Of a DNA stretch of 21,382 bases, positions 1 to 13,974 are shown piece by piece. The stretch is taken from the IMG/VR virus record IMGVR_UViG_3300023697_000634; one strand, 5' to 3'. Position numbers and translations under genes: made by a program. Numbering within the stretch: position 1 is the stretch's first letter; each line of letters starts with the position of its first letter. The DNA is from a virus. Lineage: Duplodnaviria > Heunggongvirae > Uroviricota > Caudoviricetes. The notes beneath the pieces were generated by a model. That model worked only from the letters and a program-made list of their open reading frames with translations. It had not been told where the DNA came from and made no database searches.

Positions 1-46
1 CCAAGCATATTTGTGCTTGGGTAGCCGAAGTGGTAGAGGCAAAGAG
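1..46 (+). ncRNA. Circularly permuted tRNA-like module A (truncated by window start)
   Basis: CCAAGCA(1-7) pairs with TGCTTGG(14-20) across a 6-nt loop. 15-46 reads as a tRNA 5' half: GCTTGGG-TA-GCC-GAAGTGGTAGA-GGC-A-AAGAG. The matching acceptor 3' strand lies upstream rather than downstream. The T-arm would lie before the window. Confidence 0.65.
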
Positions 47-51
47 ACGGG

Positions 52-380
52 TACAGAGATCGTTTATCGTGATAGTAGTTGTATTGACCTCACAGACTTA
101 TTGTAAGGGTTTAACTTATCAGCCGGAGAGCTTATCCTTATACTAAACATATAAAGATAAACAAGATTATGCTGGTTCGAGTCCAGCCTGCGTCGCCAAA
201 GTGATACGTAGATTGCTTTGGGACGCAGTGAGCAAATGGTAAAGCTGCTTGTTAATTAATAACACAACGTTATCGTAACGGCCCTAGTGTGCAAAAGTAA
301 GTTAGGCGTGAAGGAATTCACAAGATTCGCTTATACTCAACAGCTACGTTGTATAAGCGGTTCTTCTAAAGCGATCTGTA
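52..380 (+). ncRNA. Putative large structured RNA scaffold carrying module B at its apex
   Basis: Nested long-range helices 52-65/369-380 and 110-119/297-306 enclose 160-165/248-253. Local hairpins at 132-160, 268-280, 308-321 (GGAA tetraloop) and 328-359. No credible ORF. Confidence 0.55.
160..253 (+). ncRNA. Circularly permuted tRNA-like module B (YrlA/Y-RNA-like tRNA mimic)
   Basis: The 3' half comes first: ACAAG(161-165)-ATTAT-GCTGG TTCGAGT CCAGC-CTGCGTC-G-CCA(198). The 5' half follows: GACGCAG(222-228)-TG-AGC AAATGGTAAA GCT-G-CTTGT(248-252). Acceptor (7/7 bp) and anticodon-stem (5/5 bp) strands match perfectly, only in this permuted order. Confidence 0.85.
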
Positions 381-402
381 TTAGATTTCTTCAGAAGAAT
401 TT

Positions 403-477
403 GGACGGTTATTTCAGCGGTAGAATATCACATTGACATTGTGAAGGTCACTGGTTCGATCCCAGTACCGTCCACCA
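403..477 (+). tRNA. trnV: tRNA-Val(GAC)
   Basis: GGACGGT/ACCGTCC acceptor, TCACA-TT GAC AT-TGTGA anticodon arm, TTCGATC T-loop, encoded CCA. Confidence 0.95.
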
Positions 478-498
478 AATTTGAACATATATAATTGT

Positions 499-574
499 AG
501 CGGAGTGGAGAAGTGGTATCTCGTCAGTCTCATAAGCTGAAGATCGGTGGTTCGAATCCGCCCTCTCGCAACCA
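499..574 (+). tRNA. trnM: tRNA-Met(CAT), initiator-like body with irregular acceptor stem
   Basis: fMet-like D-arm (GGAGAAGTGGTATCTC), TCAGT-CT CAT AA-GCTGA, GGTGG/CCGCC T-arm, ends CGCAACCA. Acceptor needs a 1-nt bulge and has a 1:72 mismatch. Confidence 0.85.
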
Positions 575-579
575 AACAT

Positions 580-655
580 TGGCATATAGCTCAGTTGGTA
601 GAGCGTCTGACTGTTAATCAGAATGTCCCTGGTTCGAGCCCAGGTTTGCCAGCCA
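580..655 (+). tRNA. trnN: tRNA-Asn(GTT)
   Basis: TGGCATA/TTTGCCA acceptor, TCTGA-CT GTT AA-TCAGA, G73, CCA. Confidence 0.95.
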
Positions 656-672
656 TTTTAAAAGGAATTAAA

Positions 673-753
673 ATGAAATCAGAAGGTAGCGGTTACGCAG
701 TCGAGGGTTGGGATGATATTACCAACGACGACCTCAATCCAATTGCAATTTAA
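673..753 (+). CDS. 26-aa acidic peptide MKSEGSGYAVEGWDDITNDDLNPIAI
   Basis: AAGGA Shine-Dalgarno ahead of ATG 673. Fills the gap between tRNA-Asn and tRNA-Thr. It is the 3' part of track ORF 547..753. Confidence 0.5.
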   Translation: MKSEGSGYAVEGWDDITNDDLNPIAI

Positions 754-760
754 TTCTTAT

Positions 761-835
761 GCCGGATTAGCTCAGTGGTAGAGCACCCGCCTTGTAAGCG
801 GTAGGTCGTCAGTTCAATCCCGACATCCGGCACCA
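761..835 (+). tRNA. trnT: tRNA-Thr(TGT)
   Basis: GCCGGAT/ATCCGGC acceptor, CCCGC-CT TGT AA-GCGGT, CCA. Confidence 0.95.
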
Positions 836-843
836 AACATAGA

Positions 844-914
844 CGCGGAGAGTCAGGTGAGAGGGCAGTCTCATAAGCTCGTCCTAGAAGGTTCAAATCC
901 TTCCTCCGCAACCA
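844..914 (+). tRNA. Non-canonical tRNA(CAT), fMet-like acceptor, reduced D-arm
   Basis: CGCGGAG/CTCCGCA with C1:A72 mismatch, GAAGG TTCAAAT CCTTC T-arm, CT CAT AA loop, CCA. D region is only about 12 nt and the anticodon stem is extended with a bulge. Confidence 0.7.
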
Positions 915-924
915 AAACACAACT

Positions 925-999
925 GGTGATATAGCCTAGACGGATAGGCGGGGGTCTCATAAGCCTCATAGGTTGGCTCGGTACCAACTATCACCACCA
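925..999 (+). tRNA. tRNA(CAT) (Met or Ile2), unusual T-loop
   Basis: GGTGATA/TATCACC acceptor, GCCT/AGGC D-stem, GGGGT-CT CAT AA-GCCTC, T-loop CTCGGTA, A73-CCA. Confidence 0.85.
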
Positions 1000-1016
1000 A
1001 CACACAGGAGTTCGTT

Positions 1017-1202
1017 ATGTCAGATGGTGGTAAGGGGTCTGCACCAAGACCATTTAGCGTTAGCCAACAAGAATGGGATAATCGCTGGGATGCGATCTTC
1101 TCGCGTGATCTTGAAAAGAAACAAGATGCGCAGAAGAAGATTGAAATGCCAGGCACCACAGGTGGTGCAAAGATCGTTTTTCCCGAAGACGAATCCAAGT
1201 AA
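1017..1202 (+). CDS. Small phage hypothetical protein (MSDGGKGSAPRPFS...RWDAIF type)
   Basis: CAGGAG RBS, 61 aa. N-terminus resembles a motif I recall from aquatic phage small proteins. Confidence 0.8.
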   Translation: MSDGGKGSAPRPFSVSQQEWDNRWDAIFSRDLEKKQDAQKKIEMPGTTGGAKIVFPEDESK

Positions 1203-1208
1203 ATAAAT

Positions 1209-1284
1209 GCCTCGTTAACTCAGCGGTATGAGTAGCTCCCTTACAAGGAGAAGGTCGGCGGTTCGATCCCGTCACGAGGTACCA
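1209..1284 (+). tRNA. trnV: tRNA-Val(TAC)
   Basis: GCCTCGT/ACGAGGT acceptor, CT TAC AA loop, GGCGG TTCGATC CCGTC T-arm, CCA. Confidence 0.93.
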
Positions 1285-1288
1285 AATT

Positions 1289-1362
1289 GCTCTTGTCGTA
1301 TAGTGACATTACACATCCTTGGTACGGATGTTACACGAGTTTGATTCTCGTCGAGAGCACCA
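1289..1362 (+). tRNA. trnT: tRNA-Thr(GGT)
   Basis: GCTCTTG/CGAGAGC acceptor, CATCC-TT GGT AC-GGATG, T-loop TTTGATT, CCA. D-loop lacks the GG. Confidence 0.88.
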
Positions 1363-1363
1363 G

Positions 1364-1392
1364 TTGTCTGTCGATCTGTTATTTCATATAAT
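1364..1392 (+). promoter_or_regulatory. sigma70-type promoter
   Basis: TTGTCT(1364-1369)-N17-TATAAT(1387-1392). Predicted TSS near 1399. Confidence 0.7.
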
Positions 1393-1411
1393 AGACGAAG
1401 ACGAAAGAATT

Positions 1412-1650
1412 TAGAGTAGATACAGCAAACAAACTAATACATGGAGTAACGTCCATGATACTAAAACCCTACCGTGCCCTGAAAGGGGTGGCCGAAAGGT
1501 TGGAGGGAATGCGTTGGCCTAGTAATAGGTCGACTTTGTAGTCTTGCAAGATCAAGGATCGGGCGCCAACGATTGGCGATAGGGTCATGGAGATAGGGCA
1601 AGTGCCCGAAGTGGATGACCAGAAAATAATTTCTGCTCCCCCTACTCTGT
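1412..1650 (+). ncRNA. Structured RNA / 5' leader upstream of TROVE-like gene
   Basis: Closed by AGAGTAG(1413-1419)/CTACTCT(1642-1648). Contains at least 8 hairpins, three capped by GNRA loops (GAAA 1481, GAAA 1494, GTAA 1522). No ORF. Confidence 0.7.
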
Positions 1651-1658
1651 TGTTTAAA

Positions 1659-1714
1659 AGGTTAAGTTCCGCAACAACAATTTCTATTCATAAAAGAGAA
1701 AAAGTTTAACCTGT
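1659..1714 (+). promoter_or_regulatory. Leader hairpin just before the TROVE-like RBS
   Basis: AGGTTAA(1659-1665)/TTAACCT(1706-1712) stem, asymmetric A/C-rich loop CCGCAACAACAA, inner TTTCT/AGAAA stem. Confidence 0.5.
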
Positions 1715-1735
1715 TGATTGAAAAAGGAGTTCATT

Positions 1736-3169
1736 ATGTCAACATTCGCTGAAGCTGTAGTAAACCAAGAAGCCCGTACCACGAATGGTATGGTGGCACG
1801 CAAGTCCACTGCAAATGCGTGCGTCGATCTATTCTTCAAGATCGGTGCTTCACGTGGTAAGGACATCACGAAGGATTTCGTGGCCGCATACGCTGAGAAC
1901 AAAGATGTCGCGTTGCGCATCGCTCAATGGGTCCGTGACGCTCGTGGTGGCGCTGGTGAACGTGAATTGTTCCGCCAAGTTCTGAAGTATCTCGAAAAGC
2001 ACGATAAGGACGCTGCAGCAGCATTGCTGGCTAAAGTGCCTGAAATCGGTCGCTGGGATGACATCTTCGTCTTCGAAGATAAGGACTTGAAGGCCAAGGC
2101 ATTCACAATGTTGGGTGATGCACTCCGTGCAAAGAATGGTCTCGCTGCGAAGTGGACACCTCGCCAAGGTAAACTCGCTGCCGAAATTCGTACATTCTAT
2201 GGAATGTCGCCAAAGTTCTACCGTAAGTCGTTGGTTGAATTGACCAACGTCGTCGAAACACAAATGTGTGCGAAGGACTGGGATGCAATCAACTTCTCGC
2301 ACGTGCCATCCGTGGCCGCTGCTCGTTACAAGAAAGCATTCAACCGTAACACACAAGAATACGCAAAGTATGTTGCTGAATTGATGAAGGATCCAAAAGA
2401 TCGTACAGTCAAAGTCAAGATCAACGCTGGCGCAGTGTTTCCATACGATGTGTTGAAGGGCGTTATCGGTTCATACCGTAACAACTATTCCGCAGCTGAG
2501 CTCGGTGCGCTGCAAGCGCAATGGGATGCGATGGAAAACTTCATCGGTGATGCAAACGTCTTGCCATTGGTAGACGTTTCTGGTTCGATGTCCTGCCGTG
2601 CTGGTGGTTCTGCTTCGCAGAGCACCACAACGTGTATGGATGTTGCAGTGTCGCTTGGTTTGTACCTCGCTGACAAGAACAAGGGTAAGTTCAAGGACAC
2701 GTTCTTGACGTTCTCGGGTTCGCCAGAATTGCTGAACTTGAAGGGCAACATTGTTCAGAAAGTCCAACAAATGGTTTCTTCCAACTGGGGCATGAACACT
2801 AACTTGGTTGCTGCAATGGATAAGATCCTTGCTACGGCTACTAAGGGTGGCGTTCCACAAGAAGAAATGCCAGACATGCTGCTGATCTTGTCTGACATGC
2901 AATTCGACCAATGCGCTCGTTTCGACGATTCCGCAATGCAAATGATTGCACGTAAGTTTGAAGCAGCAGGATACGAACTTCCAAAGATCGTGTTCTGGAA
3001 TTTGAACTCGCACGATAACGTGCCTGTCAAGTATGACACTCGTGGTGTTGCTTTGGTATCTGGCTTCTCGCCAGCTATCATGACGGCAGTACTCGGTGGT
3101 GATGCTGACAAGTTCACACCAGAAGCAATGATGCTTAAGGCAGTGATGATCGACCGTTACGCGATCTAA
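1736..3169 (+). CDS. TROVE/Ro60-like (DUF2828-type) protein with C-terminal vWA domain
   Basis: AAGGAG RBS before ATG 1736 (477 aa). Helical N-terminus with RDARGGAGER and AAKWTPR, MIDAS motif VDVSGSM, ILSDMQFD, PKIVFWNL. Family called from recalled motifs. Confidence 0.8.
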   Translation: MSTFAEAVVNQEARTTNGMVARKSTANACVDLFFKIGASRGKDITKDFVAAYAENKDVALRIAQWVRDARGGAGERELFRQVLKYLEKHDKDAAAALLAKVPEIGRWDDIFVFEDKDLKAKAFTMLGDALRAKNGLAAKWTPRQGKLAAEIRTFYGMSPKFYRKSLVELTNVVETQMCAKDWDAINFSHVPSVAAARYKKAFNRNTQEYAKYVAELMKDPKDRTVKVKINAGAVFPYDVLKGVIGSYRNNYSAAELGALQAQWDAMENFIGDANVLPLVDVSGSMSCRAGGSASQSTTTCMDVAVSLGLYLADKNKGKFKDTFLTFSGSPELLNLKGNIVQKVQQMVSSNWGMNTNLVAAMDKILATATKGGVPQEEMPDMLLILSDMQFDQCARFDDSAMQMIARKFEAAGYELPKIVFWNLNSHDNVPVKYDTRGVALVSGFSPAIMTAVLGGDADKFTPEAMMLKAVMIDRYAI

Positions 3170-12588: not shown

Positions 12589-13974
12589 ATGATTGAACAG
12601 GTGATTTTCTCCAACCTAATTGGTAATGAACAATTCGCAAGAAAAGCCCTGCCCTTCATCAAGACCGATTACTTTAAGAACCGATTAGACAAGGTCTTAT
12701 ACTCGATCATCGAGCAGTTCGTCTCGAAATACAACCAGCTACCATCGAAGGCTGCACTCATCATTGAGGCTGATAACCAACCATCTTTGAATGATGATGA
12801 ATGTGCCAAGCTGAAAGACCAGATCGCAGCGATCGAAGACAGCAAAGTAGATTTGCAGTGGCTGATCGATGAGACAGAAAAGTTTTGCCAAGACAAGGCA
12901 ATCTATAACGCTATCTTCAAAAGTATCAGTATCATTGATGGAAAGAGCAATGAAGCCAAGGGATCTATTCCGCAGATCCTTTCAGAAGCTCTAGCTATAT
13001 CTTTCGACTCCCATATCGGCCATGACTTTTTGGAAGATGCCGAGTCACGCTATGACTTTTACCACAAGAAGGAAAAGCGCGTTGCGTTCGACATTGACTT
13101 TTTGAATCGTGTAACGAAAGGTGGTGTTCCAAATAAGACGCTGAACATCATCCTTGCTGGTACTGGTGTTGGTAAGTCATTGGCGATGTGTCATATGGCT
13201 GCTGCCAACCTAACTAAGGGTCTCAACGTTCTCTACATTACAATGGAAATGGCAGAGGAACGGATTGCTGAACGTATTGATGCTAACTTACTAAATACAG
13301 CGTTAGATGAGTTAGAGATTATGCCACGCGACATCTATGAAAAGAAGATGGAGCGTGTGAGACAGACGACCAAGGGTAAACTGATCGTAAAAGAGTACCC
13401 AACGTCTTCTGCCGGATCAGCAAACTTCCGCCACCTGTTGAACGAACTGAAACTGAAGCGCAACTTTAAGCCTGACATCATTTACATTGATTACTTAAAT
13501 ATCTGTGCTTCTTCTAGGATCAAACATGGCGCGAACGTCAACTCGTATACTTACATTAAAGCAATTGCGGAGGAGCTACGTGGTTTGGCGGTCGAGTTCG
13601 ATGTACCGATTTGGTCCGCGACTCAAACTACTCGTTCTGGATATTCAAGTTCAGATGTTGGCCTCGAAGATACAAGCGAATCGTTCGGACTCCCAGCAAC
13701 CGCCGACTTTATGATTGCTCTGATCTCTACTGAGGAATTGGCCGAGCTGAATCAGATTCTGATTAAGCAGCTGAAGAATCGTTATGCAGATCCTGGAAAC
13801 TATCGTAAATTCATCGTTGGTGTGGATCGCGCAAAAATGAAGCTATACGACGTTGAGCAGCATGCTCAATCAGATATTGTTGATAGTGGTCCTGCGTTCG
13901 ATAGCACTGATTCTGGCAAGAGAGTCGGACAAGAGCGTAAATTCGATAAAGACAAATTTAAAGGCTTCAATTGA
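12589..13974 (+). CDS. gp41: DnaB-like replicative helicase
   Basis: Walker A AGTGVGKS, TMEMAEE, IYIDYL, SATQTTR, ESFGLPATAD, KQLKNRY. Confidence 0.98.
   Translation: MIEQVIFSNLIGNEQFARKALPFIKTDYFKNRLDKVLYSIIEQFVSKYNQLPSKAALIIEADNQPSLNDDECAKLKDQIAAIEDSKVDLQWLIDETEKFCQDKAIYNAIFKSISIIDGKSNEAKGSIPQILSEALAISFDSHIGHDFLEDAESRYDFYHKKEKRVAFDIDFLNRVTKGGVPNKTLNIILAGTGVGKSLAMCHMAAANLTKGLNVLYITMEMAEERIAERIDANLLNTALDELEIMPRDIYEKKMERVRQTTKGKLIVKEYPTSSAGSANFRHLLNELKLKRNFKPDIIYIDYLNICASSRIKHGANVNSYTYIKAIAEELRGLAVEFDVPIWSATQTTRSGYSSSDVGLEDTSESFGLPATADFMIALISTEELAELNQILIKQLKNRYADPGNYRKFIVGVDRAKMKLYDVEQHAQSDIVDSGPAFDSTDSGKRVGQERKFDKDKFKGFN

What the first reader, a model, noticed from the sequence alone, without database searches (positions are those of the whole stretch)
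52..380. Roughly 330-nt nested RNA architecture holding the tRNA mimic at its tip
Seen: properly nested long-range helices TACA-GA-GATCGTTT(52-65)/AAGCGATC-TGTA(369-380) and TTTAACTTAT(110-119)/GTAAGTTAGG(297-306). Local hairpins include TTATC-C-TTATA/TATAA-A-GATAA (132-160, directly adjacent to the anticodon stem), CGTTA/TAACG, GTGAA-GGAA-TTCAC and CGCTTATA/TATAAGCG. Known: large ncRNAs such as GOLLD and T4 RNA C/D occur in phage tRNA clusters. Inference: an unannotated large ncRNA, apparently longer than a typical YrlA.
Basis: partly seen in the sequence, partly recalled or inferred. Interest (0 to 1): 0.75.

Follow-up and report, generated by a model that had tools for sequence, protein, structure and literature searches.

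The report
Two tandem tRNA-mimic RNA domains
The stretch is not one 330-base nested RNA: it holds the tail of one tRNA-shaped RNA domain and all of a second, and together they are a jumbo phage's copy of a widespread two-headed tRNA-mimic RNA, absent from Rfam, that follows an unknown protein gene (DUF7873).

Summary
The inner helix (109-119/297-307) and all the local hairpins are real, and 52-380 folds better than shuffles (z -3.4). The outer helix 52-65/369-380 is no better than chance (p 0.27). It loses 3 pairs in the only close relative, and its 3' strand sits in a stronger local hairpin (358-398). Its 5' strand lies inside a first tRNA-mimic domain that the window start cuts off.

In the relative L001 the region folds as two adjacent, separately closed domains of about 200 nt each (406 nt together), followed by three hairpins and tRNA-Val. 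Each domain has YrlA topology: closing stem, anticodon-like stem, T arm, 7-bp acceptor hairpin and D arm.

The pair follows a DUF7873 gene. 66 of 80 phage loci and 35 of 40 bacterial loci with that gene carry such modules. The core helices covary (87.8% paired against 59% shuffled). Over 20 tandem loci, domain-2 closure is significant (Fisher 5e-6) and a reader-type outer helix is not (0.75).

Rfam's YrlA model scores 12.7 bits against a cut-off of 69. A Ro60-fold gene lies 1.4 kb downstream with a different Y-like RNA beside it.

This scan has already reported the same DUF7873-linked double tRNA mimic on other DNA.

The parts
1..21 (+). Domain 1: acceptor-stem hairpin, cut by the window start. 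Positions 1-7 are probably an assembly artefact, because they are the reverse complement of 14-20.
   Evidence: L001 has a 13-bp hairpin here (12953-12965/12981-12993, p 0.98). Contigs of other runs read like L001 before position 8 (loose ends).
24..40 (+). Domain 1: D arm of class-II type (3-bp stem, 11-nt loop with GG).
   Evidence: Sequence reading. The same 3-bp/10-12-nt D arm is seen in module 1 of the 8 phage tandem loci listed and of 12 bacterial tandem loci.
43..61 (+). Domain 1: 3' strands of inner helices (AGAG 43-46, CGGGTAC 48-54, GATC 58-61). Their partners lie upstream of the window.
   Evidence: RNAfold of L001 12860-13372 gives 13015-18/12926-29 (p 0.85), 13020-26/12915-21 (p 0.87) and 13030-33/12906-09 (p 0.65).
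88..101 (+). Domain 1: 3' strands of its closing stem (CCTCA 88-92, AGACTTAT 94-101).
   Evidence: L001 12880-84/13060-64 (p 0.95) and 12871-78/13066-73 (p 0.93). Bacterial relatives close domain 1 with GCUGAGG/UCUCAGC at the same place.
109..119 (+).
   Evidence: It pairs with 297-307. In L001 p is 0.98. G305A and G306A turn G-U into A-U in L001. Equivalent helices of unrelated sequence occur in L181, L182, L186 and L187. Fisher p is 2e-4 over 12 loci and 5e-6 over 20 tandem loci.
127..131 (+). Domain 2: AGAGC, which pairs with 281-285. L001 has 5 bp; the window has one A-C mismatch at 129/283.
132..160 (+). Domain 2: hairpin just 5' of the anticodon-like stem (position of the YrlA 'V' arm).
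   Evidence: RNAfold p 0.93-0.95. A hairpin of different sequence sits at the same place in L181, L182 and L186.
161..165 (+). Domain 2: 3' strand of the anticodon-like stem (ACAAG), pairing with CTTGT 248-252.
   Evidence: A 5-bp helix at the canonical tRNA position is found in 46 of 69 related modules (5 of 5 pairs) and 17 more (4 of 5), with different sequences.
171..187 (+). Domain 2: T arm (GCTGG-TTCGAGT-CCAGC).
   Evidence: 100% of cells are paired and 4 of 5 pairs covary in 47 sequences.
188..228 (+). Domain 2: 7-bp acceptor stem (188-194/222-228), closed by an extension hairpin (196-221). The discriminator plus CCA is encoded at 195-198.
   Evidence: 98.8% of cells are paired and all 7 pairs covary. 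CCA follows the discriminator in 47 of 57 distinct phage modules of this type. There is a weak beta_tmRNA hit at 171-229, 19.8 bits.
231..246 (+). Domain 2: D arm with GG in the loop, preceded by TG (the position of U8).
   Evidence: 92.6% of cells are paired and 4 of 4 pairs covary.
248..252 (+). Domain 2: 5' strand of the anticodon-like stem (CTTGT).
268..280 (+). CGTTATCGTAACG: a small hairpin that is also a copy of a recurrent ATCGT-N-ATCGT-like motif in the flanks of related modules.
   Evidence: A similar motif occurs at window 58-70.
297..307 (+). Domain 2: 3' strand of the closing stem P1.
   Evidence: As for 109-119.
308..321 (+). Local hairpin GTGAA-GGAA-TTCAC.
   Evidence: p 0.98. 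L001 keeps it as 6 bp with a different loop.
328..359 (+). Local hairpin CGCTTATAC/GTATAAGCG.
   Evidence: p 0.94 and identical in L001.
358..398 (+). Local hairpin directly before tRNA-Val (403-477).
   Evidence: -14.0 and -15.4 kcal/mol. The window/L001 differences at 381-382 are in its loop.

Best explanation
Window 52-380 straddles a tandem two-domain tRNA-mimic RNA. Domain 1 starts about 100 nt upstream of the window and ends at 101. Domain 2 is 109-307. Three hairpins (308-398) follow before tRNA-Val.

Each domain is a circularly permuted tRNA body. In order it has a closing stem, an anticodon-like stem, a variable region, a T arm, a 7-bp acceptor stem closed by a loop, a D arm, and the return strands. 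This is the topology of YrlA-type bacterial Y RNAs.

The pair is the phage's copy of a conserved RNA that follows a DUF7873 gene in many phages and bacteria.

The structure and the synteny are shown here. The mechanism is inferred:
- The two domains are made as one transcript, because only 2-7 nt separate their closing stems.
- The tRNA-like heads are recognised by tRNA enzymes. The 7-bp acceptor stem with encoded NCCA makes cleavage of the acceptor loop by RNase P likely, as shown for M. smegmatis YrlA.
- The RNA serves as a protein scaffold or decoy during infection. Its partner would be DUF7873, perhaps also the phage's Ro60-fold protein.
For: - Full-context folding of relative L001 gives two separately closed domains plus three hairpins.
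- The same two-domain topology appears in most of 8 phage and 12 bacterial tandem loci.
- Pooled best-helix tests over 20 tandem loci give: domain-2 closure Fisher p 5e-6, domain-1 closure p 0.037, reader-type helix p 0.75.
- Core helices in 47 sequences: 87.8% of cells paired against 59.0% in shuffles (0 of 500 shuffles reach it) and 36-50% with slid partners. 20 of 21 pairs covary.
- An anticodon-like stem is present in 63 of 69 modules at 4 or more of 5 pairs.
- Synteny: 66 of 80 phage loci and 35 of 40 bacterial DUF7873 loci carry a module downstream.
- CCA follows the discriminator in 47 of 57 phage modules.
- RNase P cleavage and a CCA end are published for a YrlA with a 7-bp acceptor stem (PMC4201824).
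- The downstream protein 1718-3169 has the Ro60 fold: the top 13 Foldseek hits are all Ro60/TROVE, E 1e-7, TM 0.5-0.58.
- Contigs from three metatranscriptome libraries cover 8-787. Their depths differ between contigs (for example 648 against 134 in X6), while the DNA run is flat at about 24. This is only a weak hint.
Against: - Only one close relative (L001, 33 differences in about 400 nt) exists for direct comparison, so domain-level helices rest mainly on thermodynamic folds and pooled statistics, not on a curated structural alignment.
- In a larger context window the L001 fold replaces the domain-2 closure by a pairing with coding sequence.
- Two AT-rich loci (L190, L194) fold badly.
- The window's own upstream sequence is missing, so the partners of 48-61 are inferred from L001.
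- There is no transcript-end, processing or binding datum.
- DUF7873 has no informative fold match.
- Only 1 of 5 large DUF7873-bearing phage contigs carries this Ro60-like family, so the partner protein is open.
Confidence: 0.75

Rival explanations
1. One reading: one nested RNA of about 330 nt (52-380), closed by 52-65/369-380, with the tRNA mimic at its tip.
For: - The helix is present in the window (-10.8 kcal/mol) and appears in the MFE and centroid when only 52-380 or 1-402 is folded.
- The A53G and C54U changes in L001 keep pairing through G-U.
Against: - It is not above chance (p 0.27).
- Three pairs are lost in L001 without compensation, and the energy falls to -6.1 kcal/mol.
- It crosses the closing stem of domain 1, which is seen once the upstream sequence is included.
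- Its 3' strand is held in a stronger local hairpin.
- No equivalent helix is found in 20 related tandem loci (Fisher p 0.75).
Confidence: 0.06
2. Two independent small RNAs of about 200 nt each. They would be released from a precursor by processing and act separately, like YrlA and YrlB made from one precursor in M. smegmatis.
For: - Each domain has its own closing stem.
- More distant phages carry a single module, often followed directly by a normal tRNA.
- The two modules differ in D-arm type and in CCA conservation (47 of 57 against 3 of 13).
- Processing of YrlA and YrlB from one precursor is published (PMC4201824).
Against: - Only 2-7 nt separate the closing stems, and the tandem order is conserved from phages to several bacterial phyla. 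That fits one functional unit.
- No end data exist.
Confidence: 0.25
3. Split (two-piece) tRNA-like molecules that are charged. After the acceptor loop is cut, domain 2 would carry a free NCCA end and could be aminoacylated and enter translation or another aminoacyl-transfer reaction, like the tRNA-like domain of two-piece tmRNA.
For: - Encoded CCA is kept in 47 of 57 phage modules.
- The acceptor stem has 7 bp and tRNA-like D and T arms with G18, G19, T54 and C56.
- The only Rfam hit is to the permuted beta-tmRNA junction (171-229, E 2.5e-4).
Against: - ARAGORN finds no tmRNA.
- The beta_tmRNA hit scores 19.8 bits against a cut-off of 84.
- Position 3:70 is C:G, not G:U.
- There is no anticodon loop and I found no tag reading frame.
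- Bacterial homologues mostly lack CCA (5 of the modules counted).
Confidence: 0.1
4. Non-functional debris: rearranged tRNA gene halves, or a dimeric-tRNA false positive in a tRNA array.
For: The region lies in a tRNA cluster. Chen et al. warn that tRNA dimers can mimic YrlA models.
Against: - The acceptor strands of the two halves are complementary at 7 of 7 positions, with covariation across 47 sequences.
- The synteny with DUF7873 is conserved across phyla.
- The closing stems are conserved.
Confidence: 0.02

Closest known systems
YrlA-type bacterial and phage Y RNAs (Rfam RF02553; Chen et al. 2014, PMC4201824), especially M. smegmatis YrlA
   Same: - The order of elements matches: 5' stem, V, T arm, acceptor-like hairpin, D arm, 3' stem.
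- It has tRNA-like T and D loops.
- It has a 7-bp acceptor stem of the kind that makes M. smegmatis YrlA an RNase P substrate with a CCA end.
- Here it lies on the same strand as a Ro60-fold gene and 1.4 kb from it.
- Tandem Y RNAs from one precursor are known.
   Different: - The Rfam YrlA model scores only 12.7 bits (cut-off 69).
- There is no GNCGAA motif in the 5' strand.
- Each domain is about 200 nt, against about 114 model positions.
- Two tRNA-like heads in fixed tandem follow a DUF7873 gene, mostly in genomes without a detectable copy of this Ro60-like family.
- CCA is encoded rather than added.
tRNA-like domain of two-piece (permuted) tmRNA (Rfam beta_tmRNA RF01850)
   Same: The gene is permuted in the same way: T arm, acceptor 3' strand, CCA, intervening loop, acceptor 5' strand. 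A long helix replaces the anticodon arm.
   Different: - There is no G3:U70 pair, no tag reading frame and no pseudoknots.
- A full D arm is present.
- The hit scores 19.8 bits against a cut-off of 84.
- ARAGORN finds nothing.
Circularly permuted tRNA genes (Cyanidioschyzon merolae; from my own knowledge, not checked here)
   Same: The 3' half lies upstream of the 5' half, and the acceptor ends are joined by an intervening sequence.
   Different: Those give normal tRNAs after circularisation at a bulge-helix-bulge motif and keep an anticodon loop. Here no anticodon loop is recognisable, and the ends form a long closing stem.
GOLLD, ROOL and T4 species 1/2 RNAs
   Same: They are large or stable ncRNAs found in or near phage tRNA clusters.
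   Different: No Rfam match to GOLLD or ROOL at gathering score or at E up to 10. The T4 RNAs were not compared, because no sequence was at hand.

Membership tests
YrlA (Rfam RF02553) | Match to the Rfam covariance model at or above the gathering score (69 bits). | tested here: not met
   No YrlA hit at E up to 10 in window 1-420. In the relative's whole genome the model hits the domain-2 core at 12.7 bits, and the best hit (28.1 bits) is a tRNA dimer.
YrlA (Rfam RF02553) | tRNA-like module in the order V, T arm, acceptor-like stem-loop, D arm, enclosed by the paired 5' and 3' ends. | tested here: met
   Window 109-307. Covariation of the T, acceptor and D helices in 47 homologues.
YrlA (Rfam RF02553) | Encoded within about 4 kb of a Ro60 orthologue on the same strand. 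| tested here: met
   ORF 1718-3169 (+) has the Ro60 fold. Family-wide the link is loose: 1 of 5 large DUF7873 phage contigs has this Ro60-like family, and none of the L163-L259 flanks do.
YrlA (Rfam RF02553) | GNCGAAN0-1G motif near the 5' end (proposed Ro60 contact). | tested here: not met
   By reading, the only match in window 1-400 is GCCGAAG at 24-30, inside the D loop of domain 1. There is none in the 5' strands of domain 2.
YrlA (Rfam RF02553) | Bound by Ro60/Rsr. | not testable with these tools
   Needs immunoprecipitation or EMSA.
tmRNA, two-piece | G3:U70 pair, tag reading frame with resume codon, pseudoknots, and detection by ARAGORN or Rfam. | tested here: not met
   ARAGORN finds no tmRNA. 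beta_tmRNA scores 19.8 bits against 84. Acceptor pair 3:70 is C:G.
GOLLD / ROOL | Match to the Rfam models. | tested here: not met
   No hit at gathering score or at E up to 10 in 1-420.
Canonical tRNA | Contiguous cloverleaf with an anticodon loop. | tested here: not met
   ARAGORN and Rfam tRNA call nothing in 1-402. The halves are permuted.
DUF7873-linked double tRNA-mimic RNA (a class named by this scan, not a published family) | Lies directly downstream of a DUF7873 gene. | tested here: met
   Seen in L001, where the gene at 12062-12859 matches Pfam DUF7873 at E 9e-70. The window itself starts after the gene.
DUF7873-linked double tRNA-mimic RNA (a class named by this scan, not a published family) | Two permuted modules in tandem, the first with a 3-bp/10-12-nt D arm and the second with a 4-bp D stem, each with its own closing stem. 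| tested here: met

The most novel reading that the evidence does not exclude
The two domains form one RNA of about 400 nt that works with DUF7873, not with Ro60. Host RNase P and 3' trimming would cut both acceptor loops, leaving a multi-piece particle with free CCA ends held together by the closing and anticodon-like stems. This would be a new ribonucleoprotein class built on tRNA mimicry, which phages keep inside their tRNA arrays to engage or decoy tRNA-recognising host factors.
Probability: 0.25. Interest if true: 0.75.

Novelty: new variant of a known kind. Interest (0 to 1): 0.5.

Why it matters
This corrects the map of the locus. Anyone probing it should look for a two-domain RNA of about 400 nt, or two species of about 200 nt and their RNase P halves, starting upstream of the window. 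They should not look for a 330-nt species.

The underlying RNA is a widespread tRNA mimic with conserved structure. It is absent from Rfam, and I found no description of it in the papers I searched. It has a fixed protein neighbour of unknown function in phages and in several bacterial phyla.

This phage is a useful case because it carries three things side by side: the DUF7873-linked RNA, a Ro60-fold protein, and a second Y-like RNA family. That allows a direct test of which protein binds which RNA.

Tried and rejected
- blastn of 1-420 against 50,697 phage records found no match.
- nhmmer of the region against 81 loci found only L001 and L002, which are the same contig.
- A metagenome scan with the Ro60-like protein gave no relative closer than 83%, so no further close homologue of the RNA.
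- L003 (88% protein identity) is not syntenic upstream.
- RNAduplex of 110-nt flanks against shuffles was insensitive (median z -1.0) and was replaced by a contiguous-helix test.
- My compact-family model R1 hits domain 2 only weakly (22-23 bits), so the two RNA families are distinct.
- Sigma-70-like promoter and terminator scans were not above chance.
- PDB sequence searches with both proteins gave no hit.
- DUF7873 fold searches gave only generic helical-bundle matches: Foldseek E 0.01 or worse, VIA Z 8.3 or lower.
- A literature search for DUF2828 found nothing relevant.
- Read laying gave contigs only, so it shows no RNA ends. The loose end before position 8 is too short to reach the predicted partner of 53-54.
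- The short acceptor hairpin of domain 1 in the window (1-20) is rejected as real, because positions 1-7 look like a contig-end artefact.

Full report
**Observation.** I read window 1-1500 and folded the claimed interval. RNAfold of 52-380 gives -96.2 kcal/mol, with z -3.39 against 100 dinucleotide shuffles. Folding 1-402 gives z -3.36. The inner helix is there too, best written as 109-119 with 297-307.

The outer helix is present as letters and appears in the fold of the isolated interval. A best-contiguous-helix test between the flanks (21-108 against 308-402) gives score 20 against a null of 18.0 +/- 2.6, p 0.27. The inner helix gives p 0.058 in the window and 0.028 in the relative.

**The window cuts a first domain.**
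- Positions 161-252 are a circularly permuted tRNA body. In order: anticodon-like 3' strand 161-165, T arm 171-187, acceptor 3' strand 188-194, G-CCA 195-198, extension hairpin, acceptor 5' strand 222-228, D arm 231-246, anticodon-like 5' strand 248-252.
- Positions 1-40 are the acceptor hairpin and D arm of another such module.
- An exact-pattern scan found one close relative, L001. It comes from a complete 234,864-bp phage genome with terminal repeats and extends 13 kb upstream.
- The window and L001 differ at 33 positions over about 400 nt.

**Fold of the full region in L001.** Folded in full (12860-13372), L001 gives two adjacent, separately closed domains.
- Domain 1 is closed by 12871-78/13066-73 and 12880-84/13060-64, which correspond to window 88-101.
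- Its inner helices use L001 13015-13033 (window 43-61) paired with sequence upstream of the window.
- Domain 2 is closed by 13081-90/13267-76 (window 109-118/298-307) with p 0.98.
- Three local hairpins follow.

Its 3' strand lies in hairpin 358-398, which has -14.0 (window) and -15.4 (L001) kcal/mol.

**Sequence differences between the window and L001.**
- 62-64 GTT to AAG removes three outer-helix pairs with no compensation. The duplex energy goes from -10.8 to -6.1 kcal/mol.
- 381-382 fall in the loop of the local hairpin.
- G305A and G306A turn G-U into A-U in the inner helix.
- Hairpin 308-321 is kept with a different loop.

**Family evidence.**
- The gene just upstream in L001 (12062-12859) is Pfam DUF7873, E 9e-70.
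- A profile of it finds 185 phage loci. Of the 80 fetched, 66 carry at least one permuted tRNA-like module downstream and 12 carry two.
- The closest group (46-57% protein identity) has the same tandem pair as the window. Module 1 has a 3-bp D stem and an 11-nt loop. Module 2 has a 4-bp D stem.
- 35 of 40 bacterial DUF7873 loci also carry modules, 13 of them two. These include Actinomadura, Abditibacterium, Saprospiraceae, Calothrix and Pirellulaceae.
- In a 47-sequence alignment (A4), the T, acceptor and D helices are 100, 98.8 and 92.6% paired. 20 of 21 pairs have changes on both sides. Overall pairing is 87.8% against 59.0% in shuffles (0 of 500 shuffles reach it) and 36-50% with slid partners.
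- A 5-bp anticodon-like stem at the canonical position is complete in 46 of 69 modules and 4 of 5 in 17 more.
- CCA follows the discriminator in 47 of 57 distinct phage modules of the domain-2 type. It does so in only 3 of 13 of the domain-1 type and rarely in bacteria.

**Topology tests.**
- Unconstrained folding of phage loci and bacterial loci repeatedly gives a closure around module 1 alone and another around module 2 alone. The two closures are 2-7 nt apart.
- The closing helix of domain 2 has unrelated sequences in L180 (the L001 contig), L181, L182, L186 and L187 at comparable offsets.
- Over 20 tandem loci I tested three kinds of helix against shuffles. Domain-2 closure gives Fisher p 5e-6, domain-1 closure gives 0.037, and a reader-type helix (3' side of domain 1 with sequence beyond domain 2) gives 0.75 with median p 0.58.
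- These statistics are crude because they use only the longest contiguous helix. Two AT-rich loci fold badly, and in a larger context L001's domain-2 closure is displaced by a pairing with coding sequence. The domain model is therefore well supported but not proven.

**Surroundings.**
- ORF 1718-3169 matches only DUF2828 and DUF7788 in Pfam and an 'RNA-binding protein' PHROG.
- Its AlphaFold model (pLDDT 72) has Ro60/TROVE structures as its top 13 Foldseek hits, including Thermus phage phiLo Ro60. Values are E 1e-7 to 2e-4 and TM 0.37-0.58.
- Upstream of this gene in its relatives, and in the window at 1409-1654 and 1651-1721, lies a different Y-like family. Its closing stem is flanked by CAGCAA on the inner 5' side and CCUGUUG at the 3' end.
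- The compact form of about 125 nt also has YrlA topology. 16 of 24 pairs covary in alignment A1. My model of it finds 307 matches in 81 sources (80 loci plus the window), many of them mini units of about 70 nt in tRNA arrays.
- That model matches domain 2 only at 22-23 bits, so the two families are distinct.
- This Ro60-like family is found in only 1 of 5 large DUF7873 phage contigs and in none of the flanks of L163-L259.

**Expression hint.** Logan contigs from three metatranscriptome libraries cover 8-787. Their depths differ between contigs (X6: 648 for 92-251, 134 for 222-787, 980 for 828-1700), while a DNA run is flat at about 23-24. Contigs cannot show RNA ends, so this is a weak hint of transcription only. 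The same call shows that other samples read like L001 before position 8. Window 1-7, which is the reverse complement of 14-20, is therefore probably a contig-end artefact.

**Mechanism.**
- Shown here: the permuted tRNA-like structure, its closing stems, the tandem arrangement, and the synteny with DUF7873.
- Inferred: one transcript with two domains, because there is no room for signals between the closures.
- Inferred: recognition by tRNA enzymes, and cleavage of the acceptor loop by RNase P to leave an NCCA end. This is by analogy with M. smegmatis YrlA, whose 7-bp acceptor stem makes it an RNase P substrate in vivo and in vitro (PMC4201824).
- Inferred: a scaffold or decoy role with DUF7873 and/or the Ro60-fold protein.
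- Phage Ro60 with Y-like RNAs, and recruitment of host PNPase, are published (PMC12135203; PMC7824862).

**Comparison and novelty.**
- The closest known kind is YrlA. The topology and the Ro60 neighbourhood fit.
- The Rfam model does not fit (12.7 bits against 69), and the GNCGAA motif is absent from the 5' strand.
- Two-piece tmRNA shares only the permuted junction (19.8 bits against 84).
- GOLLD and ROOL give no match.
- After I had found the DUF7873 link myself, the scan's notebook showed that earlier agents reported the same 'double tRNA-mimic RNA beside DUF7873' in at least 61 genomes. One later check left the protein-partner claim at low odds. I count these notes as leads, not as support.

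**Verdict.** This finding is a mis-bounded view of a real and interesting RNA. The inner architecture is right, and the 330-nt envelope is wrong.

Noticed in passing
window 1409-1654 and 1651-1721: Two units of a second Y-like RNA family lie directly before the Ro60-fold gene. Their closing stems are AGAGTAG/CTACTCT and AGGTTAA/TTAACCT, flanked by (C)AGCAA inside and CTGTTG outside. In relatives the compact form of about 125 nt has YrlA topology with 16 of 24 covarying pairs. My model finds 307 matches in 81 sources (80 loci plus the window), many of them mini units of about 70 nt between tRNAs.
   Followed up: partly
window 1718-3169 (+): This protein has only DUF2828 and DUF7788 Pfam hits, but its predicted structure matches Ro60/TROVE structures over its full length, including Thermus phage phiLo Ro60.
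   Followed up: yes
window 1-7: The first 7 bases are the reverse complement of 14-20 and differ from L001 and from contigs of other runs. Those carry a longer acceptor hairpin here, so this is probably a contig-end assembly artefact.
   Followed up: partly
window 195-198; alignment A4 columns 62-65: Discriminator plus CCA is encoded after the acceptor 3' strand in 47 of 57 phage modules of the domain-2 type. It is found in only 3 of 13 domain-1-type modules and rarely in bacterial homologues.
   Followed up: partly
window 58-70 and 268-280; 3' flanks of modules in L181-L196: There is a recurrent ATCGT-N(1-3)-ATCGT-like direct motif in the flanks of the tRNA-mimic cores. It is not explained by pairing and could be a protein-binding site.
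   Followed up: no
L198-L259, between the anticodon-like 5' strand and the closing-stem 3' strand: Single-module relatives share a semi-conserved purine-rich stretch of 11-16 nt (roughly UYAGANUGAAA) on the 3' side of an asymmetric internal loop. The closing helix sits at a fixed register of 2-12 nt (5') and 11-16 nt (3').
   Followed up: no
L001 12062-12859 (upstream of the window): The DUF7873 protein (265 aa) is modelled with confidence (pLDDT 85) as long helices packed on a beta sheet. No informative structural match was found in the PDB.
   Followed up: partly
window 844-914: A tRNA-like sequence ending in CGCAACCA lies between the annotated tRNAs. Neither ARAGORN nor Rfam calls it at gathering score.
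   Followed up: no
window 1-1700: Near-identical DNA is held by freshwater, aquatic and wastewater metagenome runs from 14 studies, including 4 metatranscriptome libraries that hold half or more of the sampled words.
   Followed up: partly
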